Shown here piece by piece: positions 16,213-61,040 of a stretch of 64,000 bases of DNA. The position numbers were made by a program, and so were the translations under genes. This DNA comes from a virus. The stretch spans positions 13,349 through 77,348 of the IMG/VR virus record IMGVR_UViG_3300045971_000409; one strand, 5' to 3'. Position 1 is the stretch's first letter. Every line of letters starts with the position of its first letter. A model generated the notes under the pieces. The model did no database searches and was not told where the DNA came from. It saw only the letters and a program-made list of their open reading frames with translations.

Positions 16213-16245
16213 ATAACCATCACACACCCTACATGGAGGTATATT

Positions 16246-17493
16246 ATGGATTTAAAGTTGGCCATTAATGCCCGTATCCCGCTTATATCGGTGGAAACCA
16301 CGGACACCATCAACATCCTGGAGGTACTGACCCACTACGCAGGTATGCCCATCACAGAATACCCACTGAAAGGAGAAATTATGGCGGGAAACCTACTCGC
16401 CATAACCAAGAAGGAGGGAAATAAGATAGGGTCTATATTCTACTCCTACAACCCCATCTCGGGGGCCATCCCCAAACTGTACACTCGCCTGTCTGAATAT
16501 GCCCAGAGTATTATTTTCATCAATGTTGAGGATCAGGAGGGCAGTTTTGCAGTCGGCATGGTGTTTCCCGACTATGACCTCGTGAAGTCCAATTTGGCCC
16601 CGCATCTACCCGCCACTCAAGTTGAAGAATTTACCCCCTACCTAGTGGGGCACACTCTCAAGGAGATAACGGAAATTATCCGTATCCTCATGGAGATAAA
16701 AGGTACCAATGCCACACTGACTGATCTGCTTGCCGTCAAGAAAATGCTCTCTCCCCCCGTGAGAGGGGCCACAATGGTTAATACTACTCTCCCATACAAC
16801 CACCCCAATACGGCACTGGAATTGTGGCTCCAAACTGATGGTCCTATATTCCTACACTGTAGAGAGACTCGTCTGCGGCCGCGTGGATTATTATTTTACG
16901 GCACTCCAGGGACGGGTAAGACTCAGGGGGCCAAGTACCTGGCCACCCAACTGGGCCTGCCACTCTACGCCCTAGAGGTGGGAGACTCCCTGGGAAAGTA
17001 TGTTGGTGAATCAGAGGGTATGTTTGCAAAGGCTCTTCGGCATATCGACGCAGAGGAACCCTGTGTGGTCCTGCTGGATGAGGTAGAAAAGATATTCAAA
17101 GTGGGGGATGATTCCACCGGGGCAGTACAGCGCATCCTCTCCCGTCTACTCTGGTGGCTGCAAGAGAGAACGTCCAAGACTCTGGTAATCATGACTACCA
17201 ACCTCTTGGAGGCCCTGCCCACTGAGCTATATCGCCCCGGTCGTATTGATTACACCATGCGTTTCGAGGGTCTGCATTTACCAGAAGGGCTAGATTTAGT
17301 AACTGGATTGATTAATTCGTTCCCACATTTGGGAGAATTGGTACCATCCTTGCATAACTTTACGATAAATGTTCATGGTCATGTGACGCAGTTTCTTTAC
17401 AAATCGGGAGGCAGAGCCACTCCGTCGGACATAACGCAACTGGTTTTCAAGTACATCAAACTAGAGTACCTGAAAGCTATACCAAAAGAATAG
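16246..17493 (+). CDS. AAA+ ATPase (Ycf46/SpoVK-like)
   Basis: Walker A GTPGTGKT, Walker B VVLLDE, KYVGESE pore loop, RPGRID. Confidence 0.9.
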   Translation: MDLKLAINARIPLISVETTDTINILEVLTHYAGMPITEYPLKGEIMAGNLLAITKKEGNKIGSIFYSYNPISGAIPKLYTRLSEYAQSIIFINVEDQEGSFAVGMVFPDYDLVKSNLAPHLPATQVEEFTPYLVGHTLKEITEIIRILMEIKGTNATLTDLLAVKKMLSPPVRGATMVNTTLPYNHPNTALELWLQTDGPIFLHCRETRLRPRGLLFYGTPGTGKTQGAKYLATQLGLPLYALEVGDSLGKYVGESEGMFAKALRHIDAEEPCVVLLDEVEKIFKVGDDSTGAVQRILSRLLWWLQERTSKTLVIMTTNLLEALPTELYRPGRIDYTMRFEGLHLPEGLDLVTGLINSFPHLGELVPSLHNFTINVHGHVTQFLYKSGGRATPSDITQLVFKYIKLEYLKAIPKE

Positions 17494-17531
17494 TCAATAA
17501 TTACAGTAGGTTATATACCTAAAGAATAATC

Positions 17532-17560
17532 TTGACAAAACTTTCTACTTATTATATACT
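17532..17560 (+). promoter_or_regulatory. Sigma70-type promoter (TTGACAAAACT class)
   Basis: TTGACA-N17-TATACT. Confidence 0.85.
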
Positions 17561-17619
17561 CTTTCTATCAATTCAACCAACCGGTAACCCCAACCGGCAA
17601 CCACGCAAGGAGGCAACAA

Positions 17620-18336
17620 ATGGAAGACGAAGATTTGAGCTACGGAACCAAGGAGACCGAGGTAGACAACCCCAACATCATCCCCGTGGAGAGCAAGGAC
17701 CTGACCATCGCGGGCAACGCGGACTGTCTGCCCCAGGCCGTCATGTTCAACAACACCAAGGGCAATCGGGAACAGTTGGCCGTACCTGCCGACTTCCCCT
17801 ACCCAGCGCTGTTCATCAACGGTACCTACGAGCCCCAGAGTTATCTGGTACTGGGTGACATTGCCAACCGAGCGTTTCGAGTTGCGATCCGTCCCCTGTA
17901 CTCGTACTACCAGTCAGAATTCCGGGTCCGTATCGTGCCTATCTACGAGGGTGCGGACGTTTTGAATGTCCCGGAAGAATTCCCTCGGCTGCCTTTTGTG
18001 GGCAAGAAATCCAGTCATGTGCGTATCTCCAAAGTATTCACCGATGAGGTCGATACTAAGGGGGTTCGTAAGGATGAAAGTATGGAGCGCACCTTGACTC
18101 GATTCTTCTCCGACTCCCACATAGCCACCATCGAAAAGCTCTACTCCTGCTTCGGTAACACCGAATGGATAGTACCTCTGGATGGTCTGTACGCCTACCT
18201 CCAGACTTATGTGGCTCAGAATTGCGTGGACCATTTCAAACAGAGTCACGCGGGGAAAAACGATGAAACCCCGATGGTCTCCGATGAACCTGAATTTGCG
18301 GATAATGGACAAGGGCCTGATGACGATGAGTACTAA
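17620..18336 (+). CDS. Hypothetical acidic protein
   Basis: Own promoter; RBS AAGGAGG. Confidence 0.7.
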   Translation: MEDEDLSYGTKETEVDNPNIIPVESKDLTIAGNADCLPQAVMFNNTKGNREQLAVPADFPYPALFINGTYEPQSYLVLGDIANRAFRVAIRPLYSYYQSEFRVRIVPIYEGADVLNVPEEFPRLPFVGKKSSHVRISKVFTDEVDTKGVRKDESMERTLTRFFSDSHIATIEKLYSCFGNTEWIVPLDGLYAYLQTYVAQNCVDHFKQSHAGKNDETPMVSDEPEFADNGQGPDDDEY

Positions 18337-22146: not shown

Positions 22147-22175
22147 TTGACAAAACTTTCAACCTATTATATACT
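22147..22175 (+). promoter_or_regulatory. Sigma70-type promoter (TTGACAAAACT class)
   Basis: TTGACA-N17-TATACT. Confidence 0.85.
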
Positions 22176-23186: not shown

Positions 23187-23205
23187 AGAACTACACGGAG
23201 GTACC

Positions 23206-23520
23206 ATGGGCAGCCCAAGACCCCAAGGAAATCGGGACTATAAGACCCGAGTAGTTTACACTGACCAGCCGCGCTACTGTGCTTACACCAAATGTGGACT
23301 TTTGCTCGTTCAGCGGGAAGGGGAAAACCCCTCTCGATTTTACGGCCGAGAGACCTGTAACCGGGTGTGCGGGCATGGTTTATCCGCGGAAAGAAAAGCA
23401 GAAGCCATGCACATCCAAAACACACCCACACCCCGAGCAGAAGTCTTATCCCTGGAATCGGCACCACAACACGTTCAAGATGCCATAGCGCGTAGACGTC
23501 AACAAGGAGCCCTTCGGTAA
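23206..23520 (+). CDS. Small Cys-containing (putative Zn-binding) protein
   Basis: Start after GGAGGT; CAYTKC...CNRVC. Confidence 0.55.
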   Translation: MGSPRPQGNRDYKTRVVYTDQPRYCAYTKCGLLLVQREGENPSRFYGRETCNRVCGHGLSAERKAEAMHIQNTPTPRAEVLSLESAPQHVQDAIARRRQQGALR

Positions 23521-24482
23521 TGTTACTCCCGGCAGTAGAGCATCTGCTCTCTATCCTCGGGGTTAAGGACCACGGCTTACGTCCTGGCTGGGTGACCTTC
23601 TCGTGTCCGTTTGCCTTCTGGACTCACGCGGGCAGTACGGATAGTAGTCCTTCCTTCGGCATATCCTTTGAGGCCAACAGTCGAGCACACTGTTTCTCGT
23701 GCCCCGAGACTGGCAGTGCCTTGGGTATGGTCATGCGTTTGGTTGAGTGGCAGAAGAAACAGCCCAATCCGCGGTATACCAATGAGCAACTCAAAGAGGC
23801 GGTAGAATTCGTGTCCCAAGAGGAGCCGGAGGATTCTACCTCTGAATTCGATTTCCCGTCCTTCGATTCTCTGCAAGAAATCAATACGGTCAAACCGTTG
23901 ATACCCTTCCCCGAGGATTGGCTATCATCCTTCCTCTCAGGAGCTAATCATGTCTATCGAGTCAGTAGAGGCATCTCCCTGGAAACTGCCTACCGTTTCG
24001 ATATCAGGTATGACACCCTACTCAAGCGACTATGCTTCCCCCTCCGCAGTATTACCGGAACCCTCTATGGGATGCAGGGCCGTGATGTTACTGGAAAACA
24101 GCAACCCAAGTACCATTTTTACGATTACAAGGGCATCAAGAATCCTGTGGTGTGGGGTAACGAGCAGCACGTAGACCTGTCAGAGCCACTCATCATCACC
24201 GAGGGTTTCCCGGACGCGGCCAAGATAGATACGGCTGGTTTCCGTAACGTGGTGGCCTGTCTCACGTCTAAATTCAGTCGTCACAAATACGAGCGACTCC
24301 AAGATGCCAAGAATATCATTACCTTCTTCGATTATGGTACCGGTGGGGACACAGGCAGACTCCTGGTGGAACGCTATTGGAAGCACGCCCACGTCATGCA
24401 CGTTATACCCGACGAGGAAGAAAAAGACGCGGGCAACATGAGCGTAGAAGCAATACAGGAGGTACTACATGGACTCGTCTGA
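23520..24482 (+). CDS. DNA primase (Zn-binding plus TOPRIM domain)
   Basis: CPF..H...CFSC Zn finger; FPLR...GMQGR; IITEGFPD; FFDYGTGG; KDAG. Confidence 0.88.
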   Translation: MLLPAVEHLLSILGVKDHGLRPGWVTFSCPFAFWTHAGSTDSSPSFGISFEANSRAHCFSCPETGSALGMVMRLVEWQKKQPNPRYTNEQLKEAVEFVSQEEPEDSTSEFDFPSFDSLQEINTVKPLIPFPEDWLSSFLSGANHVYRVSRGISLETAYRFDIRYDTLLKRLCFPLRSITGTLYGMQGRDVTGKQQPKYHFYDYKGIKNPVVWGNEQHVDLSEPLIITEGFPDAAKIDTAGFRNVVACLTSKFSRHKYERLQDAKNIITFFDYGTGGDTGRLLVERYWKHAHVMHVIPDEEEKDAGNMSVEAIQEVLHGLV

Positions 24483-24783: not shown

Positions 24784-24812
24784 TTGACAAAACTTTCAGG
24801 CTATATTATACT
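24784..24812 (+). promoter_or_regulatory. Sigma70-type promoter (TTGACAAAACT class)
   Basis: TTGACA-N17-TATACT. Confidence 0.85.
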
Positions 24813-25654: not shown

Positions 25655-26080
25655 CCGACAAGGCGGGTCTGCTTTTGCAGCCCCCATAGAAGGGGACTTG
25701 GCCCCTTGCCCGCCTCGTTGTATTACATGGAGGTACCATGCTCAACGATACTTGCGTGCTTTACAAGGTAGGAGATACCCCCTACGTGGGACCGGATGCA
25801 GACTCAGGACCGGGCTACCCTATTGGAACTCAGGTGCGGATTATAGAAGTGTATCCCGAGGATAACCACTATCAGGTAGAGCCGGTTGACCCCGAGCTTC
25901 ACCGACTGTACCGACACTGGTACTATGCAGATTATGAACTGCGTACGGAGATACCATGATAGAGATTGATCTAAGCAGCGTAGATAAGCCCATCATCAAG
26001 GTAGAAGGGGTTGAAGTACAAGATATATGTACTTCTCTCAATCTATCCGTAGACGCAAAGACTTTAATGCCTACTGTAAA

Positions 26081-26217: not shown

Positions 26218-26730
26218 ATGAATTACTGGGTAACAGCAGACACGCATCTGGGGCACATGGCCATGATTGAAAAATGTGGCCGTCCCGACGACTTCTCCCG
26301 CAGGATTGTAAATAATACCGCGGCTATAGTACAAGAGGGGGACGTGCTCATACATCTTGGAGACTTCTGCCTGTATGCGGACGAGTTCTGGAATGAGCAA
26401 TTCTCCTCCAAGGTACTAGGCAAGCACTGGCTAGTCAGGGGGAATCATGACCGCAAGACCTCTTCGTGGTATCTCTCTCGGGGGTGGGATTGCGTAGTAG
26501 AACGCTTGGATATGTCCCTTTTTGGGGTGGATATAGCCTTCACCCACCGGCCAGTGTGGCCCCACATGCTTGAGGCGGGCCAACTGAATATCCACGGGCA
26601 TCACCACAACACTCGGCACCACCCCGAAGATGAAGTTACCTTCCAGCATCGCTGCATTAATGTTGAGGACAACAACTACGGGCCGATAAATTTACGCAGG
26701 GTGATAGAAACCTGGGGGAAGAAATGCTAG
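26218..26730 (+). CDS. Calcineurin-like metallophosphoesterase
   Basis: DTHLGH, HLGDF, GNHD, THRP, HGHHH. Confidence 0.9.
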   Translation: MNYWVTADTHLGHMAMIEKCGRPDDFSRRIVNNTAAIVQEGDVLIHLGDFCLYADEFWNEQFSSKVLGKHWLVRGNHDRKTSSWYLSRGWDCVVERLDMSLFGVDIAFTHRPVWPHMLEAGQLNIHGHHHNTRHHPEDEVTFQHRCINVEDNNYGPINLRRVIETWGKKC

Positions 26731-32441: not shown

Positions 32442-32470
32442 TTGACAAAACTAGCAATATAACATATACT
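32442..32470 (+). promoter_or_regulatory. Sigma70-type promoter (TTGACAAAACT class)
   Basis: TTGACA-N17-TATACT. Confidence 0.85.
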
Positions 32471-33878
32471 CATACTATACACACACTACAAGGAGGTACC
32501 TAATGCCTTATACAGAGAAATGGTGGCTACTCGTCTTCGTAACTTATTTGGGAGGGGAAGTATATGGTCAAATGCTTTGGGACTCTTCCCTTACTTGTTG
32601 GATATTGGGTCATAAGGGTTCCATTTTAGTAGCGGCCCACCCCCTCACCCGACAAGAGTACCAAATCATATTTAAGGAGTGGGGTGGATCGGAGGGGCCA
32701 TGCCTATAATCATAAAAAAAGGCGTAGTATCTCTATCCAAAGTAAAAGAGCTACTCCAAGAGATTACAGTCCCCAAACCCCCACCCGACTTGAAAATGCT
32801 TTGCGCTGGGGTAGGTAAACCGGTCGGTCCTGATTGGGTCATGACCCCCTGGGGTGCTTGGTGCCCTGTGTGTGGCTATAGAAGCTACTGGAATCTGGCG
32901 GCTCGTATCCATATAGGATTATCCGTTAATTGTCCCGTTATGGATTGCACCGCCCAACTTGTAGACCCTATTACGGAGAGCAAGTCATGACTGATTACAT
33001 TCGACCATCAGGGCTAGGCACTATGAATTACCGTAATATTGCCTTAGCCATCGCCTGCGGGGCTCTCATTGAGGTAGAAAAAGAAGTTCAATCTCATAGT
33101 GCTATAGGCAGGGCGGCCAACAAAGCCAACGAGGCATTAGCCAAGGTACTGCAACTACTTCCAGATCGAATGAGTACTGAGGAAGTAGTTGCGGCCGGTA
33201 AACTCTTCTTCGTTATGGAAGCCCTTATCATCCACGCTAAGTCTGATGAATTTGCGGACATGGTAAAAGAAACTGCCAAGATTTTATGTAAGTGCAAAGA
33301 CTGCGGATATAAGGGTAACAAAGAGCACTGCAAGACCTGTAACGATACACACTATCATGGGGGGTGGGGGCCAAAATGGGACGATTCAAAGTAGAGGTAG
33401 AAAACAGTCGCTTTGATTTATACGAGGAAAGCATAACAGGTACCTGTATTGTTCGTCATAATGAAAAATTCATTACGGCAGTACTTCTACAGGAGAAAGC
33501 AGATAAGAAGGAAGCGTTCTCCTACCCCTATTTTGAGGATTATGATTGGGATGAAAAAATGGTTGTAAATCAGTAGGTTATCAGTTAGTCTAGGCGGGTG
33601 CCCCGGTATATGCTGCGCGTTACCGGGTTGCCCTCCTGGACTTACCCCCCACGGAGGGCCTTTTTTATGGTAGAACAAGAAGGAATACTGGCCAAAGTAT
33701 ACACCCGATCTTACAGCAATAAACTTTGCAAGGTAAAAAGCACCCACTGGTTTTATACCAATGATCTAAAAGAAGTTCATATCCAAATGGGCCGGGCAGG
33801 GTATGACATATCCCGGTACGAAGTAGAACCTTTCTACTATACAGCTACCCCCGAGCGAAAGTTCCTGCCGGTAGATCG

Positions 33879-34738: not shown

Positions 34739-34785
34739 TACACTATAAACATTCACCAGCGACACTACACGGAGGTAATTGACTA

Positions 34786-36918
34786 ATGCAACCCAAGAAG
34801 CTGTACAGTACTATTACCGAAGGCGATCTTTTCGAGACCATGAATCTCGGAGAGGCCAAAGAGTTATTGGGGGGCAAGGCTTCCGGCCTGTTCGTCATGA
34901 CTCAACTCGGTATCCCTGTACCCCCCGCAATGACTATCCCAACCGTAGAATGTATCAAGTTCTTATCTGAGGCAAAGGAAGAGTCAGTACAGACCAGACT
35001 CAATTTTCTGGTAGATGAAGTCCTCACCGCGATAAAGACCGATATCGTTCCGCAGTTCGGATACACCCCGTTGTTCTCCGTTCGTTCCGGGGCTCGGGTG
35101 TCAATGCCAGGTATGATGGATACCATTCTCAACGTGGGACTGACCCCGGATACCTTGGAAGAGTGGTTTCCGCGTATCGGGGAGTGGGCCTCCTGGGATA
35201 GCTACCGTCGCCTCATTCAGATGATGGCTTCTGTGGCCCTTGAAGTTCCGATGTCTCAGTTTGAAGAGGCCCTCACGGACGCGAAAAAAGAAGAGAATGT
35301 GACTGAGGATACCGCCCTTTCAGTATCCGCCCTTCGCAAACTGGTTATCCGTTACAAGAAACTGGTCAAGGCCCATACCGGTAACGATTTCCCCACCACC
35401 CTTCGGGGGCAGTTATTGCTGGCCATCAAGTCGGTATTTCAATCGTGGGACAACCCCCGCGCCCATACGTACCGCGCATTGAACAATATCCCCTACGATT
35501 GGGGCACCGCGGTAACAGTACAAGCCATGGTCTTCGGAAATCGTAACGAGCAGTCTTGCTCTGGTGTTCTCTTCACCCGAGACCCATCCACCGGGGATGA
35601 TAATCTGGTAGGGGAGTTCCTACCTAACGCCCAGGGTGAGGACGTTGTTGCGGGAATCAGAACCCCTCTGCCCTTTGACGAACTGGAAAAATGGAACCCC
35701 AAGGTATGTTCTGACTTGAAGGCCGTCGCTGTTCGACTGGAAGATCACTACCGGGACATGCAAGACATAGAGTTCACGGTAGAGAATGGAAAGTTATATA
35801 TCCTCCAGACCCGTAATGCCAAGCGATCACCAGAAGCAGCTCTCAGGGTAGCGGTAGACATGTACCACGATGAGCTGATTACTCTGTCTGATGTATCTCG
35901 AAGGCTCACCCCGGAATTGCTCTTGGGGTCCGACCACGTCAGTATCGACCCGGCTTATACGGGAAAACCTGCGGGGGTGGGCATCCCTGGGGGTGGTACC
36001 ATCGTCAGTGGTGTCGCGGTATATACCTCTGAGGAAGCTATCGCCTGCAAAGAGCCCTGCATCCTGGTCTCCAAGGAAACTACCCCCGATGATATTGGGG
36101 GGATGCACGCCGCAGTGGGTATTCTCACCGCAACTGGGGGCTTAACTTCTCACGCGGCCGTGGTGGCTCGGGGTATGGGTAAAACCTGCGTCGTCGGTTG
36201 TGGGGACCTGGGTAAAATCGGCTTTGTGTGGAAACTGGGAGAGACCCTGCTCCCCAAGAATGAATGGCTAACCATCAACGGTCTCACGGGGGAAGTATGG
36301 AAGGGGAAGGTACCACTGGTGACCAAGGGCATCAGTCCTGCGGCCCAGCAGATAATAAGTATTCTGACCAAGGGTTATTCTCCGTTACTACTGGATGGGA
36401 CCTTCGACTCACGCTTACGACTACCTTCGGTATGTGTGACCCCCGCCATAACGAGTACCAACCTGAGACACGCGGCCCTACAGCATGATACAGTAGTTAT
36501 CAATGGTACCGCCACAGTGAAACAACTGCATGTCGAAGACGATAAAGTACTCTCTGAATTGTTTAGTATTGATATCGCGGCCAGGGCTGAATATCAGGCT
36601 ATAGGGGCAAAATTGAAGCAACTGCACACTTTAACTGCCCCAGACGTGGCAATTTATGTTACAGTACCCCCCGACTCAGGCATTAATGTCAAGGATATGC
36701 CCAAGTTTAAAACGGTGCCTTCCGCCAATACGATAACCGATATCCTGAACTCGTCGGGATTGGTTGAATTACCCGCGGACACCTGTAAGACTTTATTCGA
36801 GGACCAGACGGGATTGCAATTGTTCCTAGATATGGCTGAAATGGCTGGCCGTAAGTTTAATATCCTACCCCCGGCTCAAACGTACACCGAGTTTATCCAC
36901 CGCGTTTTGGGAGAGTAA
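34786..36918 (+). CDS. PPDK-derived dikinase: ATP-grasp and phospho-His domains plus an unrelated ~195-aa C-terminal domain
   Basis: GGKA, SVRSGARVSMPGMMDTILNVGL, NAQGEDVVAGIRTP, DMQDIEFT, GGLTSHAAVVARG (His456). No motifs of the PEP/pyruvate TIM barrel are visible. Confidence 0.9.
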   Translation: MQPKKLYSTITEGDLFETMNLGEAKELLGGKASGLFVMTQLGIPVPPAMTIPTVECIKFLSEAKEESVQTRLNFLVDEVLTAIKTDIVPQFGYTPLFSVRSGARVSMPGMMDTILNVGLTPDTLEEWFPRIGEWASWDSYRRLIQMMASVALEVPMSQFEEALTDAKKEENVTEDTALSVSALRKLVIRYKKLVKAHTGNDFPTTLRGQLLLAIKSVFQSWDNPRAHTYRALNNIPYDWGTAVTVQAMVFGNRNEQSCSGVLFTRDPSTGDDNLVGEFLPNAQGEDVVAGIRTPLPFDELEKWNPKVCSDLKAVAVRLEDHYRDMQDIEFTVENGKLYILQTRNAKRSPEAALRVAVDMYHDELITLSDVSRRLTPELLLGSDHVSIDPAYTGKPAGVGIPGGGTIVSGVAVYTSEEAIACKEPCILVSKETTPDDIGGMHAAVGILTATGGLTSHAAVVARGMGKTCVVGCGDLGKIGFVWKLGETLLPKNEWLTINGLTGEVWKGKVPLVTKGISPAAQQIISILTKGYSPLLLDGTFDSRLRLPSVCVTPAITSTNLRHAALQHDTVVINGTATVKQLHVEDDKVLSELFSIDIAARAEYQAIGAKLKQLHTLTAPDVAIYVTVPPDSGINVKDMPKFKTVPSANTITDILNSSGLVELPADTCKTLFEDQTGLQLFLDMAEMAGRKFNILPPAQTYTEFIHRVLGE

Positions 36919-36919
36919 T

Positions 36920-37234
36920 ATGGCATTGATATTGGGATTAAAAAAGGGATGTTCCATGTACATAGGTGACACACGGGTCACCCTACACACGATTATAGGC
37001 CCCGAGGCGTTCCGCATCCAGGTATTCCAGAACAAGAAGAAACCCCACTACCTGCCCATAACCGGGGAAGAGAGTACAGAAATACTCCCTTCGGTATTTG
37101 TGTCTGCGGGCAACGGGGATTTAGAGACCGCACGGGTAGTAGTTGATGCCCCCCGCAGCATCACCATCCTTCGGGAAGGCCCGTACAAAAGGCATATCAA
37201 TGGACAGACGTCAAAACTACCGCTTCACGAATAG
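36920..37234 (+). CDS. CsrA/RsmA-like RNA-binding protein, apparently two fused half-units
   Basis: LILGLKKGCSMYIGDTRVTL..IGPEAFRIQV resembles CsrA LILTRRVGETLMIGDEVTV..VKGNQVRIGV; ARVVVDAPRSITILRE resembles VRIGVNAPKEVSVHRE. Confidence 0.72.
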   Translation: MALILGLKKGCSMYIGDTRVTLHTIIGPEAFRIQVFQNKKKPHYLPITGEESTEILPSVFVSAGNGDLETARVVVDAPRSITILREGPYKRHINGQTSKLPLHE

Positions 37235-38226: not shown

Positions 38227-38270
38227 TACACTATATAAATTCCCACGTGGTACTTACAGGGAGGTAAACG

Positions 38271-39311: not shown

Positions 39312-39331
39312 CCCCTTACATGGAGGTAACA

Positions 39332-40195: not shown

Positions 40196-40231
40196 CTTCT
40201 TAATACATACCACTACAAGGAGGTAATCATT

Positions 40232-46478: not shown

Positions 46479-46507
46479 TTGCGATTTAATCCAGTACCCT
46501 ATATACT
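46479..46507 (+). promoter_or_regulatory. Sigma70-type promoter (TTGCG class)
   Basis: TTGCGA-N17-TATACT. Confidence 0.75.
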
Positions 46508-46553
46508 ATAACCATATCAACCACCACAACAGCACAATACAAGGAGGTACACC

Positions 46554-46685
46554 ATGGATGCGTCACAAGGAATGAAAAGATGGTATGATTTTCTAAAAAG
46601 CCGCAGTAAAACCACAAAGACCTTCACCCTCAACGATATTATGATTTGGGAAAAGGAGGTACACAATGACAGCACTACCGATTGA
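46554..46685 (+). CDS. 43-aa protein not in the ORF track
   Basis: Follows a promoter and TACAAGGAGGTA; MDASQG...STTD*. Confidence 0.55.
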   Translation: MDASQGMKRWYDFLKSRSKTTKTFTLNDIMIWEKEVHNDSTTD

Positions 46686-47724: not shown

Positions 47725-47758
47725 TACACTATATCATCCACACACAAGGAGGTACCCA

Positions 47759-48055: not shown

Positions 48056-48084
48056 TTGACAAAACTACAGGTATCACATATAAT
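48056..48084 (+). promoter_or_regulatory. Consensus sigma70 promoter
   Basis: TTGACA-N17-TATAAT. Confidence 0.9.
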
Positions 48085-48159
48085 CAACTCATAAATAATT
48101 CTTGCTGGCCATCCAGCGAGACCCCCCCAGGGGGGCACACTACACGGAGGTATCACATC

Positions 48160-48629: not shown

Positions 48630-48956
48630 CACTTCACGTTCGAGGAGAATTATCGTGGCCAATCCCAATGAAAAGATGTGTGTGAAATGCCCTATGCAGG
48701 ACTACTCTCTCGGTATTGAACTGGGGAAGCGTAATCCTGATGGAACCGGCCCCAAACTGCGCGGGAAGCGGTACACCAAGTACATCACGGACGCAGAGAA
48801 GTGCCCCAAGTGCGATAGTAAACTGGTACCGTGGAAGCACGCCTCACCCTACAACCCCACGGCCCAAGAGCCCCGCCCCACGACAGCCAAAGAACCGGAC
48901 GCCCTGATCGACCAACTGGTAGATTAATCTGCCACACTACAAGGAGGTATCACGTT

Positions 48957-49469
48957 ATGCCAATCGTCAATATCACAGCCGCAGTGACTGGGAAAGGCCA
49001 TCCTGCTTTATGGGAAGAGGGTGGATCAGCAGGCCAGTCAGGTTTCGCTCAGATTATCAGCGGGCAGGACGGTAACAAACTGGCCCCCATCTTCGTAAAG
49101 AACTCGGGTCATAGGTCTTGCGCCGAGCATGCCCTCATCCCGGTAGCCAATAACTACTACGTGGTACGAGTGATGCGAGTCCGCGGGTCTATTACCGTGG
49201 AAGTGATGAAAGTCCTACGTATCTACAAGGAAGTCACTGGCACCAAGCTGGCCATGAATCTCTTTGCGCGGACCAGTGCCCCGGAAACTGATGACCTCAG
49301 CGAGTGGGCGGAGTCCTTCTCCCACCAAGTACCCAAAGCTATCAAGGCCGCTATCGCCAAATCGTTCGAGCATCATTGTCGGGAGCCGCGGTACACCAAG
49401 GATTTCATATCTGCGGCCGACTACGAGACTACGGAGGTTATCAATGGCGTATCAGACCAACATCCTTAA
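48957..49469 (+). CDS. Hypothetical protein
   Basis: Start after TACAAGGAGGTA. Confidence 0.65.
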   Translation: MPIVNITAAVTGKGHPALWEEGGSAGQSGFAQIISGQDGNKLAPIFVKNSGHRSCAEHALIPVANNYYVVRVMRVRGSITVEVMKVLRIYKEVTGTKLAMNLFARTSAPETDDLSEWAESFSHQVPKAIKAAIAKSFEHHCREPRYTKDFISAADYETTEVINGVSDQHP

Positions 49470-52040
49470 CGGAGCAATAGCTACGGAGTCGGGACTTATT
49501 GTTGGCAAACACTACGAGGATTGTGTATTATGCCGGTCACCGCTGTCTTCTGACGGGTGCTCCAATCCCAAGTGCTTTCAGTCCCGCCCCACCTACCCGC
49601 TACAAGAAGCCATGCGGAAAGTAGCAGCCACCAAAGACTTAAAGGGGGAACGTCGTGGGACAAGCCAAACGCAGGCCCAACCGGGTACAGGAAGCGATAG
49701 CCCGCCAGGAAGCCCAGGACCGAGCTGAAGCTGATCGGCGGGACCAAGAGGCAGAGCGCGATTACCGTCACCAGTTGAAGATAGCTGAAGAATGGGCCAA
49801 GCTCACCCCCGAACAACAATCAGCTTGCCTGAAAAAGGCAGCACGAGAGGCGGAAGCAATGTCCTATCTGGCTTCTATATTCAATGTGACACGCTACGGG
49901 AGGTACTTTAGATGAGAGAAAAGATGCGGTGGGATACTCTCAGCTACAATAGTCGAATACGGATTACCACTTACTCATCATTTCTGGGTGGAGGACACTA
50001 CCGGGTTCGTATTATGGTGGGCCCGCGTAATGAAGATGGAACTGATAATCTTGGTCCCAGGTCTAGGCCATACAGGGTGATCGAGGATATTACTGCGTCC
50101 AGTCATGACCATGTGTTTGAACAGTGCGCGGCCATGATACGCAAAGACCCCAATTGGAAAGGAATCAAATAACGAATTCCCCGGCGGTATTTTAGCTACA
50201 GAAAGGAGAGCCAGTTCTCACGAGGAAAACCCCTTGCTTAATGTTAGCGTTGTGGTTTGCTGGTACCGGAATTGGTGCTCTCATGAATAGGGTGGTCCTA
50301 TTCTCTGGGTCTAGTCGTGACGATCCCTCCGGGGTCTTATTTTCAAAGGAGATGCTATGCGGACAGTAGACCTACATTCCATTGCGTCTTTCTCTTCGGG
50401 TCTGGTACTCAACTTGGTGGAATGGATACCCGCCCGCTGGGGGTACAGAAGTGTGAGCTACCAGCAGTATTTTTTCCCCTCTATGGAGGGATAGTTTGCC
50501 AGGGGAATCAAGGACCACTGGTGGATAAGTAGTGTCGGAATAGGCCGACCGGGGTGTCGATGTAAAACAACTTCCAACCTGTCTGTGGACGCTATATTCA
50601 TTTGAGCCATCTATTAACATCTTGGGCGACATCGGCACCCCCCTTATATCGTAAAGGAATAAAGATATGACAGTAGAAAAGGCAATAGAGTGGGCCAGGG
50701 GTAATTCGTGGCCGTTGGATAAAAATGACGACAGGGATTTCAGAGTCATTGAAGACATAATGGACGCCTTTGCAGACGAGGTAGATAGGTTGCGGGAAAC
50801 CGTGGCCATACAGGAGGTACTTATCTTGGGGGAGGGTAAAGCAAATCAAGCCCTCCGTGACGAGGTGGGACGGATAAACAATCTGCTTGATATCACGACA
50901 AATGATTACAACCAAGTTCACGATAAGCTGTTATTGTCGGAGGCAGAGCTAGACAATTACAAGCTGCGGTGGGAAATAGAAAAACAAAATCGAACCCAAG
51001 GAAGATGAATAGTCGGCATGTAGTTTAGCGACTCAGCCAAGGAGAATGACCGAATGGAAGACTCAGACCGAGAGGCCACACAATTATTTCAGTTGAGGAG
51101 CATACTCATAGGCCATTGTGGGGAGATACTGACTCCAAACAAAGTTGACGCCATATTCCTTGAGATAAAGGATGCCATAACCCAAGGCCCCTGCTCCTGG
51201 GCGTTCAAGGGGATTGGACAAAAGAAGACTGTTACCCTACTCAAGCCAGTTATCGGCGGCCATCTCCTACAGCACATGACGGTAGGGCGGGCATACCCCC
51301 TGTACAGCGGAAAGCCTCACTTTGCTGGGCTGATACTGGATGATTCGGGCTCCGTAGTGCATCTGACCGCAACCTGCATCCGGCAACATCTACGGGTCGG
51401 CCACAGTACACCCCAAACACCACCACCCCCTACAACACCGGGGTAGCATTTTACCCGCTAAATTTGCGGCCTAACAAGGAGAACACCCCTTACCCATACC
51501 TACCCCTCACCACCATTTTTACAAACGGCCCACAACGAATTTCACACGGAGGTACATCATGAAGGAACCCATCTGGAATATGCGGGCGGTATGCCCCACT
51601 TGTCTCCCCCCACCCCCGGACCTGTCCAACCTGACGGTGGGGCATTTCGTCAAGACCATTGATAACTACGAACGCTTCTGGGTCAAAGTGGCCGAGCTAC
51701 ACCCTGACGGCATGATTGTTGGCGTAGTGGACAACGACTTGGTACTGGAGCACTCTTTTGTCTGCGGGGATGTTATCACTATCCATCGAGACAAAGTTAT
51801 TGAGGTATGGGTATGAACCGTATACCCAAGTTTCCACGGCTCGTGACAACTCGGCCCATGACGGAGGAAGAAGCCAAAATAATCAGGCTGACCGCCAAAG
51901 AAGCAGCACAACAGGGTGCGAGTGTCGCAACCAAGTGCCGGGATATTGACACCGGGGAAATGAAATCTTGCGAGAAAGAAGACAACCACACCAAGATGCC
52001 ATTCTTTGTACAGAAAGCCTAAGTAACTACATGATTTTCC

Positions 52041-52069: not shown

Positions 52070-52406
52070 ATTCTTACAAATCGGCACCCACCACTCAGGG
52101 TAACTACAGGGAGGTACATCATGGAACAGGTTAAAAAGTACAGAGTGAACACAGCGGAGGAAGGCGGGGGCTGGACAATCCATACTTGCGGGCGTGACCT
52201 CAAGCCGGGGGATGAGTTCTGTCCCTTCCTGCTTCGTATGGACCCCGCCTGGATACCGGAAATGCTCGCGGACAAGCGAATCACCTACATCGGGCTGGCC
52301 TACTAGGAGGGCATCATGTCTTACACGCTTTGGACTTTTGAAGGCTTTATGGTATTCATCGTTCTGGTCGGCTTCTACTACACGATAAAAGACTTCACGA
52401 AACGCT

Positions 52407-52424: not shown

Positions 52425-54010
52425 CCACTACAAGGAGGTATAACATGCGGGAAAAGCAGCAGATTTATCACAAGCATCAGGTAGTCATGCCACGGATGAG
52501 GATTATTCGGGGCTATCCGCTTACCACATCGCTGGACGAGAAGGCCAAAGACGCGGCCGAGTTCCCTGGTATTACGGTCTTCCTCAACGGTAAGCATACC
52601 TTGGCTCATTGCATGTATCAGGACGACCCGGATGGTCTCTACCGCACCCGGATTCGTGACCACAAGGCCCACACCCTCAAGGGCTGCCGGGATGAGTACG
52701 TCTACGAATACTTCATGATTAGGCTCATGGCCCGCATGATAATAGGGGGTAGGTAGCCATGGGCAACCTCATTTGCCCTAAGTGCGACGACTCTGGAATG
52801 ACCTGGCTGGACCCTGAGATGGACCGCCTCTTGGAAGAGGGTATCATGAAGTGCGACGGCTGTGGGGCCGAGTTCAAGGGTATCCCCGGCTGGCAGCGGG
52901 CTATGCGCTCCAAGAGGGATAGGCAGAGGCACGACAGTCTACGCACGTTCGGCCCACCCACACAGGAGCTTCTACAGATAACATGCGACTGGATGGAAGC
53001 CCAGGGCGGGGGCACCGTTGGTACCGAGGGGCAAGTAGTAGTGGTTCGTAATGCCAAGGGCAAGGCCATAGGCGTAGGCATGACCCATCTGGCTGCTCTG
53101 GCTATGGCGGGCCGCAGAATACAAAGAATAAAGGGAGAATAATCATGGCCTTATCTCTAGCGGAAGCGAAAAAGTACATGAACGAGGGGGGCTCAAGCCT
53201 GCAAGGACGGCAGCACTGACATGCCCTACCCCAAAGATTCAGGTGAGGCTTTTTGGTGGGACAAGGGGTATATTGCCCAGAACAAAGAAGAGGAGGATTA
53301 GTCATGGCAAGGAAATACATTCACACGTACAAGTTCGAGTTCCAGGTAGAATCGGAAGAGTATGACCCGGACAAGGTTACTGAGGAAGAGATCGGCAACG
53401 CTCTCATAACTGCCGCAGGCATATCCTGTATAGACCCATCAACTGTTGAGGTAGACTGCGAGTACGTGGGGACGTTATGACCGGACTTCGTTTGGTACAC
53501 GTCCTCACGCTGGCGGACAAGCATAAGACCCTGCTCTCCAAATTTGAGCGGGAATTAGTAGAAGACCGCGTAGCCGCCTTCCAGAAATATGGATTGCGGA
53601 CCCGCATCACCCCCAAGCAGGAAGAGATACTGGAAGAGATAGCCGAGAAACTGGGAGGTACGTCATGACACCACAAGAACAGAATGAATTACTGGCTCAG
53701 TGGGCCGGGCTTGAGTGCCGGTGCGAGACATTATTTTGTACATGCGATGCTCATCCCGACTATGACCGGGATGAGGTGGCGGTTACGCTGTTGTCGAAGT
53801 TGAACGAGTTAGGATACAGATTTGAATTAAACAACAGAGGAAAAGAAAACGACTATACTCTTGAAGTCTGGATAAAGCCACAGGACGGATTTCTCGCAGT
53901 AGTCGAAAAGCCCACCATCGCCGCAGCAATCAAGGCGGCAGTGCTACAGTTGGTTCAACAGGAGAAGTAATGAGACATTCACGGGATAATGGTTTTAAGG
54001 CGGAACCTCT

Positions 54011-57070: not shown

Positions 57071-57449
57071 AAACATAAAAAAGCGCATCAACCCCCACCG
57101 AGGGGGACCACTACAGGGAGGTACAGCATGCAAGTAATTTACAGAGGAAAAGTCCTGGACCATGACGGGATGTGCGTCTCCCCGTACTGTGCCCTGGAAC
57201 ACGGGAGGAAACTGTGAACAGCATATTCGTGAAGATAGACAATGGGGTAATCAGCATTGAGGATGGAGAGACCCCGGAACTTGAACCCGCGCTCTTCAAT
57301 GCCAATGCCATAGGGGCCGCCGGGGCTCGTAAGTATCTGGACAAGCTCAAAGGGCGGTGTATACTGTTCTCCAGCAGCGTGGACTTTCCCACCGATTACG
57401 GCGGGGCGAAATCCATCACTCGCATCCTGCGAAGCAACCTTCAATAGTT

Positions 57450-58759: not shown

Positions 58760-58820
58760 AAATCAAAAAGTTCACACCACACCAACCCGCGGGGCGGGCA
58801 ACTACAAGGAGGTACATCAG

Positions 58821-59234
58821 ATGGAAGTTTATCGCGGCAACAGATTGCTTCATGCGGACGAGGCCCAGAAGGATTTTCCAGAGTCAACCCAGTATTTCAG
58901 GCTGGTGATTGAGCACAATGAGGACGGCTTTCAGGTAACGCAGCTCGATTACGAGGACGAGTCGGAAACCCCGTGGAACGCTACTCCGGTCAGGACGTAC
59001 CCCACCCTCGAAGATGCCATCGTCTTCATAGTGAACAGCGAGGACGACTACTGCTTGTTCATTGGCAATTCGGATGTGGGGTTGGCCATCGCCCACCGAC
59101 CTATCGGCCACGGAGAGTCCGTTATCGGGGCACAAGACCTTGAGACCATCCGGCTCATGTTTGAGTATCTGAGGGAAAAGGGCCTCATCGAAGACGCCAG
59201 TGACTACGTAGACCAGCGGCTCGAAGGCGCGTAA
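58821..59234 (+). CDS. Acidic hypothetical protein
   Basis: Start after TACAAGGAGGTA. Confidence 0.65.
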   Translation: MEVYRGNRLLHADEAQKDFPESTQYFRLVIEHNEDGFQVTQLDYEDESETPWNATPVRTYPTLEDAIVFIVNSEDDYCLFIGNSDVGLAIAHRPIGHGESVIGAQDLETIRLMFEYLREKGLIEDASDYVDQRLEGA

Positions 59235-59643
59235 CATAACCAGCGGGGGCGGCAACGCCCCCCTCAACCCAACTACAGGAGAGAGCCATGATTTACAACG
59301 GACAGGACGTACAGCCCACGCAAAAGACCTTCTACCTGCGGGCTCGGAAAGAAATCAAGATGAGAAACACTGTGGTACCGGCGGGACGGCAGTTCAGTCT
59401 CAACGACCACGCCTTTGCCCAGTTCATAGTCGAGAAAGGGCATGCCTACTTCATCAGGAAGGGAGCAATCTAATGACCACGACTATCATCACGTTCGACG
59501 AAAAGAGGTGCCACGAGTGTGGGACGATGGCATGGCGGGACACGCAATGCGGCCCTGGTAAGTGGTACTGGTGCCCGACGTGCAAGGAATACACCATCAA
59601 CCCCCACGGTGTAAAGAACGACGTATCATGACCCCAATCAGCA

Positions 59644-59673
59644 CTAGGCCCACAGGATTTCTTGTGGGCCTAG
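59644..59673. terminator. Inverted repeat / hairpin
   Basis: CTAGGCCCACAGGA-TT-TCTTGTGGGCCTAG. Confidence 0.5.
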
Positions 59674-59696
59674 CCCTCGTAACCACATGAATCTTC

Positions 59697-59725
59697 TTGC
59701 GTTTTTCCCGAGGCTATTATATAAT
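59697..59725 (+). promoter_or_regulatory. Sigma70-type promoter (TTGCG class)
   Basis: TTGCGT-N17-TATAAT. Confidence 0.8.
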
Positions 59726-61040
59726 AAATCAAAAAGTTCACTCACCCACCCCAAAGTGGGCAACTACAAGGAGGTAAGAGATCATGAGAAAGTACATCGG
59801 CAACGGCATCTACAGCGACGACAAAATCCTGCCAGCCAGCCTGGGACTCACCTGCGACTGCGGCAACCCCGCCATCGTGCAGCGCGAGACCATCTGCGAC
59901 GAAGACCCCATCAACCTGTGCGGTGCCTGCGTAGTGGCGGCCAACGACATGAAGAACCTGCACCCCGAAGGGTAGCAGCAACTACAGGAGACATGACATG
60001 GACGCGAAAGTAAAAGCGAAATTCGACGAAGCCAAGAAAGTGAATCTGTTGGCCAACGAGAAAGCGGCCCGCGACGAGATGGAAAAACGGTATGACCCGT
60101 TCTACATCACCCACGCGGAAACGGCGGCCAAGAAAGTGCGGGCCGGAGAGATCACCATGTGGGAGTACATGGATTTCATCGGTCACCTGGCTTCCACCTG
60201 GATGGACGGCAAACTCAGCGACACCGCAATCTGCGAAAAGCACGGCTGGACCTACTAGGGTCCGAACCTACAGGAGAGCTACTATGAAGATTCAGTTCAA
60301 CACCCGCAGGCAGTACACGGCAGAGGGGCAGCGCATTGTGGCCATCCTTGACCCCGTATCCGAGCAGATTGCTTTTTGGGACCATGACCGTGGGGTGGAT
60401 GGTATCTTCCCTTCAATGTGGGTGGGGGAGTATGAGCCTACAGAAGCAGAGATTAAAGAGGAAGTCATGTTCGCCTATGACCGCGGGCTCTCTCGCCCCT
60501 TGTTCGGCAAAGACTTTGGCGGCAAGCGCCTCAATGACTGGAACGTCATTCACGAGATGTTCAAATGGGAGGCACAATGAGACCTTTACGAGTCGGAGAT
60601 TACGTTACACGGGTCGGGCTGCCCTTCCAGGCGGTAACGGGTAGGGTTGTGGCCCTCAATGGCCCTGAGGCCCAGATTATGACCGTCTGGGGGGTAATTG
60701 AGAAGACCCCCAATACTGGGTTGTTCAAGCGCGGACGAAAAAAGGACTTTACCGGGAACACCACGACCTATGTGGTGGAGGAAGCACAACGCCTCATCGA
60801 CGACCCGGACTACATCAAGACGTATCACATAGGAGTGTGACATGGAAAAACCTGTAAGCAAGGTACACGAGGCCGACCTTATTGACGCCACATTCATGGG
60901 GGAGATAACTACCAAGTGGTACACCGACCGCATGGCCATGCTGGAAGAGCTGGCTGAACTCGGCTTCTCTACTGGCCCTGCCCTTACGGAACTGTGTGAC
61001 GTGTACCTCAAAGCCTGCAAGAACATCGAGGAGGGACGAC

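What the first reader, a model, noticed from the sequence alone, without database searches (positions are those of the whole stretch)
16230..59776. Phage-wide CsrA-type translational regulon: Shine-Dalgarno sites folded into TAC-ANGGAG-GTA hexaloop hairpins
Seen: 16 exact TACANGGAGGTA sites, each just before a start codon, at 16230, 23192, 25724, 32487, 34766, 38255, 39317, 40214, 46538, 48141, 48938, 52105, 52429, 57112, 58803 and 59765. Variants are CAC..GTA (47743, 51543), GC-AAGGAG-GC with a changed but still paired stem (17605) and a pentaloop (24454). TAC pairs with GTA and the N position takes all four bases. I saw no exact copy in the structural/lysis block 1-16063. Anti-SD pairing explains GGAGGT but not the 5' TACA or the 3' A. 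Established: CsrA/RsmA binds ANGGAN hexaloops closed by AC/GU pairs (SELEX consensus RUACARGGAUGU) and blocks ribosome loading. Inference: the phage CsrA-like protein (36920) and/or host CsrA coordinately represses the first genes of early/middle transcripts. That includes the operon encoding the CsrA-like gene itself (site 34766), which would give a post-transcriptional timer or a host-state sensor.
Basis: partly seen in the sequence, partly recalled or inferred. Interest (0 to 1): 0.9.

Follow-up and report, generated by a model that had tools for sequence, protein, structure and literature searches.

The report
Phage ribosome-site hairpins with CsrA-like gene
A pond phage places the ribosome-binding sites of at least 16 early genes in a small RNA hairpin shaped like the docking site of the bacterial regulator CsrA. 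It also encodes an unusual one-chain CsrA relative, so it probably runs its own translational switch, although no binding has been tested.

Summary
There are 16 exact TACANGGAGGTA sites, all on the + strand and all at start codons, against 0.03 expected by chance. None lies in the tail/lysis block.

The 3-bp hairpin is not stable as free RNA (+1.0 kcal/mol). The pairing is nevertheless real. At the orthologous kinase ribosome site of 34 related phages, the stem changes sequence but stays paired (84% vs 54% in shuffles; covariation 0.65 vs 0.17; 0/500 shuffles reach it).

Such hairpins are enriched only in relatives that carry the CsrA-like gene (z about 19 vs about 0-1 in controls). They are also gene-specific: kinase 29/39, a 346-aa unknown protein 26/38, DNA polymerase 1/18, portal 0/18.

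ORF 36920-37234 belongs to a roughly 100-aa CsrA-derived family. Its C-terminal 57 residues superpose on a whole CsrA chain, and the Arg44 equivalent is conserved.

My best reading (about 0.55) is that this phage protein represses translation at these operators, including its own operon. Binding is untested. The co-occurrence cannot single out the CsrA-like protein from the other genes of the kinase/phosphatase module.

I found no paper describing this. The scan has flagged the same pattern before in other phage genomes.

The parts
16230..16241 (+). Operator hairpin TAC-ATGGAG-GTA at the ribosome site of the AAA ATPase gene (16246-17493)
   Evidence: A sigma-70-like promoter (TATACT) lies just upstream.
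23192..23203 (+). Operator hairpin TAC-ACGGAG-GTA at the ribosome site of a 104-aa ORF (23206-23520)
   Evidence: It directly follows a TGCAATTAATTGCAC palindrome.
25724..25735 (+). Operator hairpin at the ribosome site of a 73-aa ORF (25738-25959)
32487..32498 (+). Operator hairpin at the ribosome site of a 68-aa ORF (32503-32709)
   Evidence: Promoter-like TTGACA-17-TATACT lies at 32442-32470.
34766..34777 (+). Operator hairpin TAC-ACGGAG-GTA at the ribosome site of the PPDK-like kinase, the first gene of the operon that encodes the CsrA-like protein
   Evidence: The orthologous site is a covarying hairpin in 29 of 39 relatives. Promoter-like site at 34710-34738.
34786..36918 (+). PPDK-like kinase (710 aa; PPDK_N and PEP-utilizers domains; phrog_18609)
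36920..37234 (+). CsrA-like protein (104 aa), read as a one-chain CsrA derivative and the proposed reader of the hairpins
   Evidence: Pfam CsrA match E=9e-4, 19.6 bits. About 190 family representatives. 60 of 70 members hit PF02599. The family profile hits only CsrA, RsmE, RsmF and RsmN in the PDB. AF2 model pLDDT 92.9. Residues 40-96 align to CsrA 1vpz_A with Z 5.0 and rmsd 1.6 A over 57 of 57 residues.
38254..38267 (+). Operator hairpin TTAC-AGGGAG-GTAA at the ribosome site of a 346-aa unknown protein (phrog_20946)
   Evidence: Orthologues carry a hairpin in 26 of 38 relatives. Promoter-like site at 38198-38226.
39316..39329 (+). Operator hairpin TTAC-ATGGAG-GTAA at the ribosome site of the second phosphatase-like gene (39332-40165)
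   Evidence: Orthologues 8 of 11.
40214..40225 (+). Operator hairpin at the ribosome site of a 260-aa unknown protein (40232-41014)
   Evidence: Orthologues 12 of 21. Promoter-like site at 40167-40195.
46538..46549 (+). Operator hairpin before a 43-aa ORF that overlaps the next gene
   Evidence: Promoter-like site at 46479-46507.
48141..48152 (+). Operator hairpin at the ribosome site of a 144-aa ORF (48160-48594)
   Evidence: A 12/12 sigma-70 consensus lies at 48056-48084.
48938..48949 (+). Operator hairpin at the ribosome site of a 170-aa ORF (48957-49469)
52105..52116 (+). Operator hairpin at the ribosome site of a 61-aa ORF
52429..52440 (+). Operator hairpin at the ribosome site of a 103-aa ORF; follows a TGCAATTAATTGCAC palindrome
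57112..57123 (+). Operator hairpin before a 29-aa ORF (57128-57217) that overlaps the next gene
58803..58814 (+). Operator hairpin at the ribosome site of a 137-aa ORF
59765..59776 (+). Operator hairpin at the ribosome site of a 63-aa ORF
47743..47754 (+). Variant CAC-AAGGAG-GTA (outer pair lost) at the ribosome site of a 93-aa ORF
51543..51554 (+). Variant CAC-ACGGAG-GTA at the ribosome site of an 85-aa ORF
17605..17614 (+). Variant GC-AAGGAG-GC (changed but still paired 2-bp stem) at the ribosome site of a 238-aa ORF
24454..24464 (+). Pentaloop variant TAC-AGGAG-GTA
49895..49905 (+). Pentaloop variant TAC-GGGAG-GTA
7467..7478 (+). Hairpin ribosome site with a different stem, TAA-AAGGAG-TTA, before a tail-fibre-like gene in the late block
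60825..60840 (+). Hairpin ribosome site with a different stem, TCACA-TAGGAG-TGTGA

Best explanation
The 12-mers are RNA operators. In each, the Shine-Dalgarno GGAG sits in an A-N-G-G-A-G hexaloop that can be closed by a 3-4 bp stem. They sit on the first cistrons of transcription units that lie behind sigma-70-like promoter consensus matches and have short leaders.

The proposed reader is the phage's own 104-aa CsrA-derived protein (36920-37234). I read it as a single-chain pseudo-dimer. Its N-terminal beta1 (L3, L5) and C-terminal beta5 (R85, equivalent to CsrA R44) would form one RNA-binding face. It would clamp one hairpin per molecule, hide the Shine-Dalgarno sequence from the 30S subunit and repress translation.

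The protein is encoded second in an operon whose first gene carries an operator, so the circuit would be autoregulatory. It would shut early and middle genes down as the protein accumulates, much as T4 RegA does but built on a CsrA fold.

Shown here: the motif and its placement; stem covariation; restriction of the hairpins to particular genes and to this phage clade; the CsrA ancestry of the protein. Inferred: binding, its direction (repression), the one-site stoichiometry and the timing.
For: Motif. It is non-random and sharply bounded, with a free N. It matches the SELEX consensus at 10 of 12 positions, with ACA and GGA invariant in both.

Free RNA. The hairpin is unstable alone, so keeping it paired implies a trans-acting factor.

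Covariation at an unbiased orthologous site (the kinase ribosome site, 34 phages).
- 84.3% of cells are paired, against 53.7 +/- 3.8 in shuffles.
- The covariation score is 0.652, against 0.171 in shuffles (0 of 500 reach it) and at most 0.122 in slid registers.
- Pair types at the outer position are AU 9, UA 8, GC 6 and CG 2.
- RNAalifold predicts the same helix.

Compensatory changes within single phages. Examples are GCC/GGC, AACC/GGUU, CACC/GGUG and GGC/GCC in L137, and UCA/UGA against CCA/UGG in L143.

Enrichment by clade.
- In the 46 CsrA-like-positive loci, sites with a stem of at least 3 bp make up 17.2%, against 6.0% when permuted (z=18.7).
- The signal is register-specific: 11.4% for the hexaloop register against about 1.7% for other registers.
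- There is no signal in the 34 kinase-only loci (z=1.0 and 1.8) or in 115 random phage loci (z=-0.1 and 0.3).

Gene-specific conservation. Hairpins occur at kinase 29/39, the 346-aa unknown 26/38, phosphatase 2 8/11 and the 260-aa unknown 12/21, against DNA polymerase 1/18, portal 0/18 and the CsrA-like gene itself 2/24.

The protein. L3, L5, A77-P78 and R85 are conserved in the family and align to CsrA L2, L4, A36-P37 and R44. Structural match: Z 5.0, rmsd 1.6 A over a whole CsrA chain.

Single sites. There is no second GGA upstream of the operators: 0.31 per leader against 0.66 for other genes, and no A.GGA at all. This fits a one-site reader.

Host range. The feature is seen in phages of Rhodobacter (RcZahn: GCC-AAGGAG-GGC at the kinase gene, AACC..GGUU at gp10) and in a 96,542-bp contig whose length matches Stenotrophomonas phage DLP5. 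It therefore follows the phage rather than one host.
Against: - No binding or expression data exist.
- This protein's own Pfam score is below the curated cut-off (19.6 vs 27 bits).
- The CsrA-like gene always travels with the kinase, two phosphatases and two unknown proteins. Co-occurrence therefore cannot say which of them reads the hairpins.
- The coupling is imperfect. L278 has the CsrA-like gene without the module and only one hairpin among 19 candidate sites. L280 and L281 have the module but show only a linear ACATGGAGGC or no stem.
- The within-genome permutation test on the non-exact sites is only modest (p=0.007 with Watson-Crick pairs, 0.11 when G-U is allowed).
- The one-site, single-chain reading rests on a predicted model and on chain-level superposition only.
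Confidence: 0.55

Rival explanations
1. Host CsrA/RsmA is the reader. The phage places optimal CsrA sites on its early ribosome sites, either to tie early translation to host physiology or to soak up host CsrA. The phage CsrA-like protein would act elsewhere, for example on host mRNAs.
For: In this phage the motif is almost the SELEX optimum for E. coli CsrA (ACA, GGA and GU all present). Others have proposed that phage RsmA homologues manipulate host pathways (PMC8450108).
Against: - Stems in relatives drop the ACA (GCC, ACC, UCA, CCCA) but keep the pairing.
- The hairpins track the phage clade across phages of Rhodobacter, Rhizobium-type and Stenotrophomonas hosts.
- Each operator is a lone site with no second GGA upstream, unlike typical two-site targets of dimeric CsrA.
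- The host of this phage is unknown; the source is a pond metagenome.
Confidence: 0.12
2. A different trans factor reads the hairpins. Candidates are another protein of the conserved kinase/phosphatase module, or a RegB-like endoribonuclease that cuts GGAG in the loops.
For: The hairpins co-occur with the whole module, not just with the CsrA-like gene. In L278 the CsrA-like gene stands without the module and there are few hairpins. From my own knowledge, T4 RegB cleaves GGAG in early Shine-Dalgarno sites.
Against: No other module protein shows an RNA-binding family in Pfam or PHROGs. The CsrA fold is the one known to recognise exactly this kind of element. I did not search for a RegB homologue.
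Confidence: 0.1
3. The element works in cis without any dedicated protein. It would be a preferred strong ribosome site, with a short stem that tunes Shine-Dalgarno presentation, mRNA stability or standby binding.
For: GGAGGTA is the general preferred Shine-Dalgarno context in this phage: 26 of 27 ribosome-site GGAGGT are followed by A, and 12 of those lack TACA. Genes that sit in intergenic gaps are free to adopt an optimal ribosome site.
Against: A 3-bp stem at +1.0 kcal/mol has no effect on its own, yet the pairing is maintained by compensatory change. The hairpin and the SD/anti-SD duplex are mutually exclusive. The enrichment is absent from random phages and from the DNA polymerase and portal genes of the same phages.
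Confidence: 0.15

Closest known systems
CsrA/RsmA/RsmE operators on bacterial mRNA leaders (SELEX consensus RUACARGGAUGU; RsmE-hcnA complex, PDB 2JPP family)
   Same: GGA lies in a short hairpin loop that overlaps the Shine-Dalgarno sequence. ACA, GGA and GU are conserved. The stem forms only with help from the protein. The expected outcome is translational repression (2jpp is among the profile hits).
   Different: The sites are on phage genes and stand alone rather than in pairs. The loop is ANGGAG followed by a full SD, GGAGGU. The proposed reader is a 104-aa one-chain derivative, not the roughly 60-aa homodimer.
Phage-encoded RsmA/CsrA homologues (Campa et al. 2021, PMC8450108; the CsrA annotated in Vibrio phage J26, PMC12038007)
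   Same: A CsrA-family gene is carried by a phage. In J26 it sits in the same position, after a PPDK-like gene and before a phosphatase.
   Different: Those papers propose manipulation of the host, for example repression of CRISPR-Cas. Neither describes operators on the phage's own ribosome sites, nor the roughly 100-aa insertion-bearing family.
T4 RegA translational repressor regulon (from my own knowledge)
   Same: A phage protein would bind the translation-initiation regions of many early mRNAs, including its own, to shut them off.
   Different: The fold is unrelated. RegA sites are AU-rich linear sequences, not GGA hairpins. This is a functional analogy only and was not tested here.
Start-associated sequences (SAS) of Cluster K mycobacteriophages (PMC3203893, found)
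   Same: A conserved motif of about 13 nt that includes the Shine-Dalgarno sequence is repeated in front of a subset of genes in one phage.
   Different: The sequence and hosts differ. As far as I recall, no hairpin covariation and no cognate regulator are known for SAS. I did not read the paper in detail.

Membership tests
CsrA/RsmA protein family (PF02599), for ORF 36920-37234 | Pfam match at or above the curated cut-off | tested here: not met
   This protein scores 19.6 bits against a cut-off of 27, E=9e-4, and only residues 67-90 align. However, 60 of 70 family members match PF02599 at E<=0.01 (best 5e-8). The family profile hits only CsrA, RsmE, RsmF and RsmN in the PDB.
CsrA/RsmA protein family (PF02599), for ORF 36920-37234 | Conserved RNA-binding residues: beta1 Leu2/Leu4 and beta5 Arg44, plus the Ala-Pro turn | tested here: met
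   L3 is invariant across 70 members. L5, A77, P78 and R85 are invariant or nearly so. They align to CsrA L2, L4, A36-P37 and R44.
CsrA/RsmA protein family (PF02599), for ORF 36920-37234 | Protein of about 60-70 aa with five strands and a C-terminal helix, forming an intertwined homodimer | tested here: inconclusive
   The protein is 104 aa, and the model has nine strands and a helix. Residues 40-96 superpose on a whole CsrA chain (Z 5.0, rmsd 1.6 A, 57/57), and RsmN gives Z 4.5. Foldseek gave no hit at E<=0.001. The oligomeric state is unknown.
CsrA/RsmA protein family (PF02599), for ORF 36920-37234 | Binds GGA-containing RNA | not testable with these tools
   No protein-RNA prediction or assay was available.
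CsrA-type RNA operator, for the 12-mer | GGA lies in the loop of a short hairpin | tested here: met
   Covariation of the closing stem across 34 orthologous sites and within phages. The hairpin is not stable as free RNA.
CsrA-type RNA operator, for the 12-mer | Sequence consensus RUACARGGAUGU, with ACA and GGA invariant | tested here: met
   UACANGGAGGU matches 10 of 12 positions, and ACA, GGA and GU are invariant in the 16 sites. The leading R is not matched (mostly C), and U is replaced by G.
CsrA-type RNA operator, for the 12-mer | Overlaps the Shine-Dalgarno sequence or start region of the regulated gene | tested here: met
   GGAGG lies 4-10 nt before the ATG at all 16 sites.
CsrA-type RNA operator, for the 12-mer | Two or more GGA sites per target, bridged by the CsrA dimer | tested here: not met
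   No A.GGA lies in positions -60 to -19 of any of the 16 leaders. GGA frequency there is 0.31, against 0.66 for other genes.
Start-associated sequence (SAS) of Cluster K mycobacteriophages | The specific 13-bp SAS consensus, in a mycobacteriophage | tested here: not met
   The sequence is different. Relatives by protein similarity are phages of Proteobacteria. The SAS consensus was recalled from memory and not re-read.

The most novel reading that the evidence does not exclude
A broad clade of roughly 80-100 kb siphophages infecting Alpha- and Gammaproteobacteria would run a private translational regulon. The regulator would be a single-chain, one-site derivative of CsrA that reads covarying A-N-GGAG hairpins on the ribosome sites of a conserved kinase/phosphatase module. 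In this phage the regulon would have expanded to about 20 early transcription units. This would be the first virus-autonomous CsrA circuit and a natural monomeric CsrA.
Probability: 0.45. Interest if true: 0.85.

Novelty: new variant of a known kind. Interest (0 to 1): 0.75.

Why it matters
CsrA is known as a global bacterial regulator, and phage copies have been assumed to act on the host. Here the phage's own ribosome sites carry the operators, and their base-pairing is maintained by compensatory evolution across many phages. This points to a virus-run translational timer comparable to T4 RegA.

It also offers a natural one-chain CsrA with a probable single RNA site, which bears on how CsrA specificity and stoichiometry evolve and could be useful as a compact orthogonal translational repressor. 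Cultured relatives exist (Stenotrophomonas DLP5 and DLP3, Rhodobacter RcZahn, Rhizobium RHph_TM16), so the idea can be tested directly.

Tried and rejected
- Exact-pattern scan of IMG/VR with ACTACAAGGAGGTA. It returned only single chance hits, and no other phage has multiple copies.
- Megablast of 10 kb against cultured phages. No match.
- ACA.GGA counts in relatives. The strand bias was mostly coding-sequence codons, not ribosome sites.
- Single-sequence AF2 model. Unusable, pLDDT 38. Foldseek against the PDB gave no hit at E<=0.001.
- Homodimer prediction for the CsrA-like protein. No verdict. It is not used as evidence either way.
- Rfam at gathering thresholds and a tRNA scan. Nothing found.
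- Search for a CsrB-like sponge RNA. No intergenic stretch is rich in GGA.
- Host identification. The genome-contig scan with the kinase returned only bacterial PPDK-like genes, and none of those 80 loci has the CsrA-like gene. The family alignment was too divergent for that scan. The only sequencing runs that hold the stretch are pond metagenomes, with no RNA holder listed.
- Reading the TATACTTACACTATA elements as T7-like phage-RNA-polymerase promoters. Rejected in favour of sigma-70-like promoters with TTGCAA/TTGACA at -35.
- DNA-level operator (inverted repeat bound by a dimer). Rejected because the stems differ and compensate within single phages, and all sites lie on the coding strand.
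- Whether Rhodobacter or Rhizobium hosts lack csrA. Not tested; a literature search was unhelpful.

Full report
**Observation**

The window is bases 13349-77348 of a 77,348-bp IMG/VR virus record from a pond metagenome. CheckV estimates the record to be 62% complete. All genes lie on the + strand and GC is about 50%.

Shuffles give 0.03 expected. N is A in 7 sites, C in 3, T in 3 and G in 3. Every site is followed within 2-8 nt by an ATG.

A position-by-position count shows the conservation is confined to the 12-mer, plus a weaker (C/A)AC just upstream. The flanks are unrelated, so the copies are held by selection and not by recent duplication. All the listed variants are present, and a further pentaloop, TAC-GGGAG-GTA, lies at 49895.

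No exact copy lies in the tail/lysis block or in the 13.3 kb before the window. That is 0 of 26 genes there against 16 of 86 elsewhere (p=0.02). Motif genes mostly follow an intergenic gap: 14 of 43 genes with a gap of at least 40 nt, against 2 of 43 for the rest (p=0.0016).

Six of the nine sites between 32 and 52 kb lie 17-57 nt downstream of a sigma-70-like promoter match, including a 12/12 consensus at 48056-48084. The total number of such matches in that region is no higher than in shuffles (20 vs 20.2). Other sites follow terminator-like hairpins or a TGCAATTAATTGCAC palindrome. Most sites thus follow an intergenic gap, as first cistrons would, and six of them sit close behind a sigma-70-like match, which would give short leaders.

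**Is it a hairpin?**

As free RNA it is not. Forcing the TAC/GTA stem costs +1.0 kcal/mol, and its pairing probability in context is at most 0.12. Within this genome the exact copies cannot show covariation. A permutation test on the 63 non-exact GGAG ribosome sites is only modest (p=0.007 with Watson-Crick pairs, 0.11 when G-U is allowed).

The decisive evidence comes from relatives. I fetched 80 IMG/VR loci through the neighbouring PPDK-like kinase, at 38-53% amino-acid identity. Many of these phages have their own recurrent ribosome site in which (A)NGGAG is a 5-6 nt loop closed by a different stem:
- GCAC/GUGC in L117
- GCC/GGC in L124
- GACC/GGUC in L160
- AAAC/GUUU in L145
- CCCA/UGGG in L181
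- UCA/UGA in L170
- GCA/UGC in L161

Compensatory differences also occur within single phages. L137 has GCC/GGC, AACC/GGUU, CACC/GGUG and GGC/GCC. L143 has UCA/UGA alongside CCA/UGG.

I then took the ribosome site of the kinase gene in every locus, chosen by position only. Of 39 sites, 29 have at least 3 Watson-Crick pairs in this register. An ungapped alignment of 34 of them (A2) gave these results for the 3-bp helix:
- 84.3% of cells are paired, against 53.7 +/- 3.8 in shuffles.
- The covariation score is 0.652, against 0.171 +/- 0.048 in shuffles (0 of 500 reach it).
- Registers slid by 1-3 columns score at most 0.122.
- Pair types at the outer position are AU 9, UA 8, GC 6 and CG 2.

RNAalifold independently predicts the same helix.

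**Specificity**

An HMM of the CsrA-like family finds the gene in 46 of the 80 kinase loci. It finds it in none of 115 random IMG/VR loci and in none of 80 bacterial-genome kinase loci.

Within-locus permutation gives the following:
- CsrA-like-positive loci: mean stem 1.30 vs 0.86 (z=18.6); sites with at least 3 bp, 17.2% vs 6.0% (z=18.7).
- Kinase-only loci: z=1.0 and 1.8.
- Random loci: z=-0.1 and 0.3.

On unique sites the signal is confined to one register. The hexaloop NNGGAG register gives 11.4%, against about 1.7% for other registers.

The hairpin is also gene-specific among orthologues:
- With hairpins: kinase 29/39, the 346-aa unknown 26/38, the second phosphatase 8/11, the 260-aa unknown 12/21.
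- Without: DNA polymerase 1/18, portal 0/18, the CsrA-like gene itself 2/24.

In this phage all four of the hairpin-bearing genes carry the exact 12-mer (34766, 38255, 39317, 40214). The core of the regulon is therefore the kinase/phosphatase module, and this phage has extended it to a dozen further early genes.

**The protein**

ORF 36920-37234 (104 aa) starts 1 nt after the kinase stop codon. Its own Pfam CsrA score is sub-threshold (19.6 bits, E=9e-4).

It belongs to a family of about 190 cluster representatives of 85-118 aa. Of 70 members tested, 60 match PF02599. The family profile hits only CsrA, RsmE, RsmF and RsmN chains in the PDB. There, the N-terminal LxLxxxxGxxxxxGD aligns to CsrA beta1-beta2, and ARxxIxAPRxIxILRxxxY aligns to CsrA beta4-beta5 including Arg44.

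With the alignment, AF2 gives pLDDT 92.9, with nine strands and a helix. Residues 40-96 superpose on an entire CsrA chain (1vpz_A: Z 5.0, rmsd 1.6 A, 57 of 57 residues), and RsmN gives Z 4.5.

I read this as a one-chain pseudo-dimer: a full CsrA unit preceded by a partial one. It would leave one complete beta1/beta5 RNA face. This is an inference from the model.

The reading fits the operators, each of which stands alone. No leader has a second A.GGA upstream.

**Mechanism and rivals**

The hairpin and the SD/anti-SD duplex cannot exist together. A 3-bp stem also needs a partner to form. The most economical reading is therefore a protein that clamps the loop and blocks the 30S subunit.

The CsrA-like protein is the only module member with a fold known to read exactly this element. 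The 12-mer matches the CsrA SELEX optimum at 10 of 12 positions. The operon that encodes the protein carries the operator on its first gene in most relatives, which suggests negative autoregulation.

Against host CsrA as the main reader: the stems of relatives lose the ACA but keep the pairing. In addition, the feature follows the phage clade into Rhodobacter phage RcZahn, which has the same gene order, GCC-AAGGAG-GGC at its kinase gene and AACC..GGUU at gp10. The CsrA-like gene is also found in Rhizobium phages, and the feature appears in a contig whose length matches Stenotrophomonas phage DLP5.

Caveats:
- The CsrA-like gene always travels with the kinase, two phosphatases and two unknown proteins, so co-occurrence cannot single it out.
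- One locus (L278) has the CsrA-like gene without the module and few hairpins. Two loci (L280, L281) have the module with weak or no stems.
- GGAGGTA is a general preference in this phage even without TACA.
- Nothing here measures binding.

**Known or new**

Phage-encoded RsmA/CsrA homologues are known and have been proposed to manipulate the host (PMC8450108). The orthologous gene is annotated as CsrA in Vibrio phage J26 (PMC12038007). Papers on DLP5, DLP3 and the vibriophages mention the dikinase and the phosphatase but not these operators. My searches found no description of hairpin Shine-Dalgarno operators on phage genes.

Earlier notes of this scan describe the same pattern in other phage genomes, including Stenotrophomonas-type and Rhizobium-type relatives. 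I read them after my own tests, and they agree.

I rate this as a new variant of a known kind: CsrA-type translational control that is phage-autonomous and uses a one-chain reader.

Noticed in passing
window 16070, 20118, 23171, 26083, 30046, 52409, 57452, 62185 (plus two in the 13.3 kb before the window): There are ten copies of the 14-bp palindrome TGCAATTAATTGCA, usually followed by C. About half sit 10-25 nt before a start codon, and two sit directly before operator hairpins. It may be a protein operator or an RNA 5' hairpin.
   Followed up: partly
window 16187-16212, 17535-17560, 22150-22175, 24787-24812, 32445-32470: A family of five sigma-70-like promoters shares ACAAAAC(T/C) at about -35 and (TA)TATACT at -10. 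A second type, TTGCAA-17-TATACT-TACACTATA, lies at 34710, 38198 and 47696.
   Followed up: partly
window 26724-28991: A 755-aa helicase (ResIII/DEAD) is interrupted by an intein with an HNH endonuclease (Pfam Intein_splicing and HNH_3).
   Followed up: no
window 34786-41014: A conserved module runs in the same gene order in Rhodobacter phage RcZahn and in 40-odd IMG/VR relatives. It comprises a PPDK-like kinase whose Pfam matches (PPDK_N, PEP-utilizers) end by about residue 500 of 710, the CsrA-like gene, two phosphatase-like genes, and 346-aa and 260-aa unknown proteins. Its substrate is unknown.
   Followed up: partly
window 1-6827 (ORF starts 2.8 kb before the window): A giant 3197-aa ORF lies in the virion block. 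It is far longer than a usual tape measure protein. I did not examine it.
   Followed up: no
window 46554-46685 and 57128-57217: Two operator hairpins precede very short ORFs (43 and 29 aa) that overlap the start of the next gene. These may be leader peptides, or translational coupling devices.
   Followed up: no
window 59278, 59987, 60273: Three ribosome sites read CTACAGGAGA. They keep the 5' half of the motif but lack the 3' GTA partner.
   Followed up: no
L197 (Vibrio phage J26) 6470-6494 and 10626-10650: The vibriophage branch has a 160-aa CsrA-like protein and a different recurrent ribosome site, GATAAGGATC(A), at the kinase gene and at one more module gene. Its pairing register is unclear.
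   Followed up: no
L280 11250-11267, 13050-13068: This relative repeats a linear ACATGGAGGC at module ribosome sites without a closing stem beyond one pair. The stem is therefore not universal in the clade.
   Followed up: no
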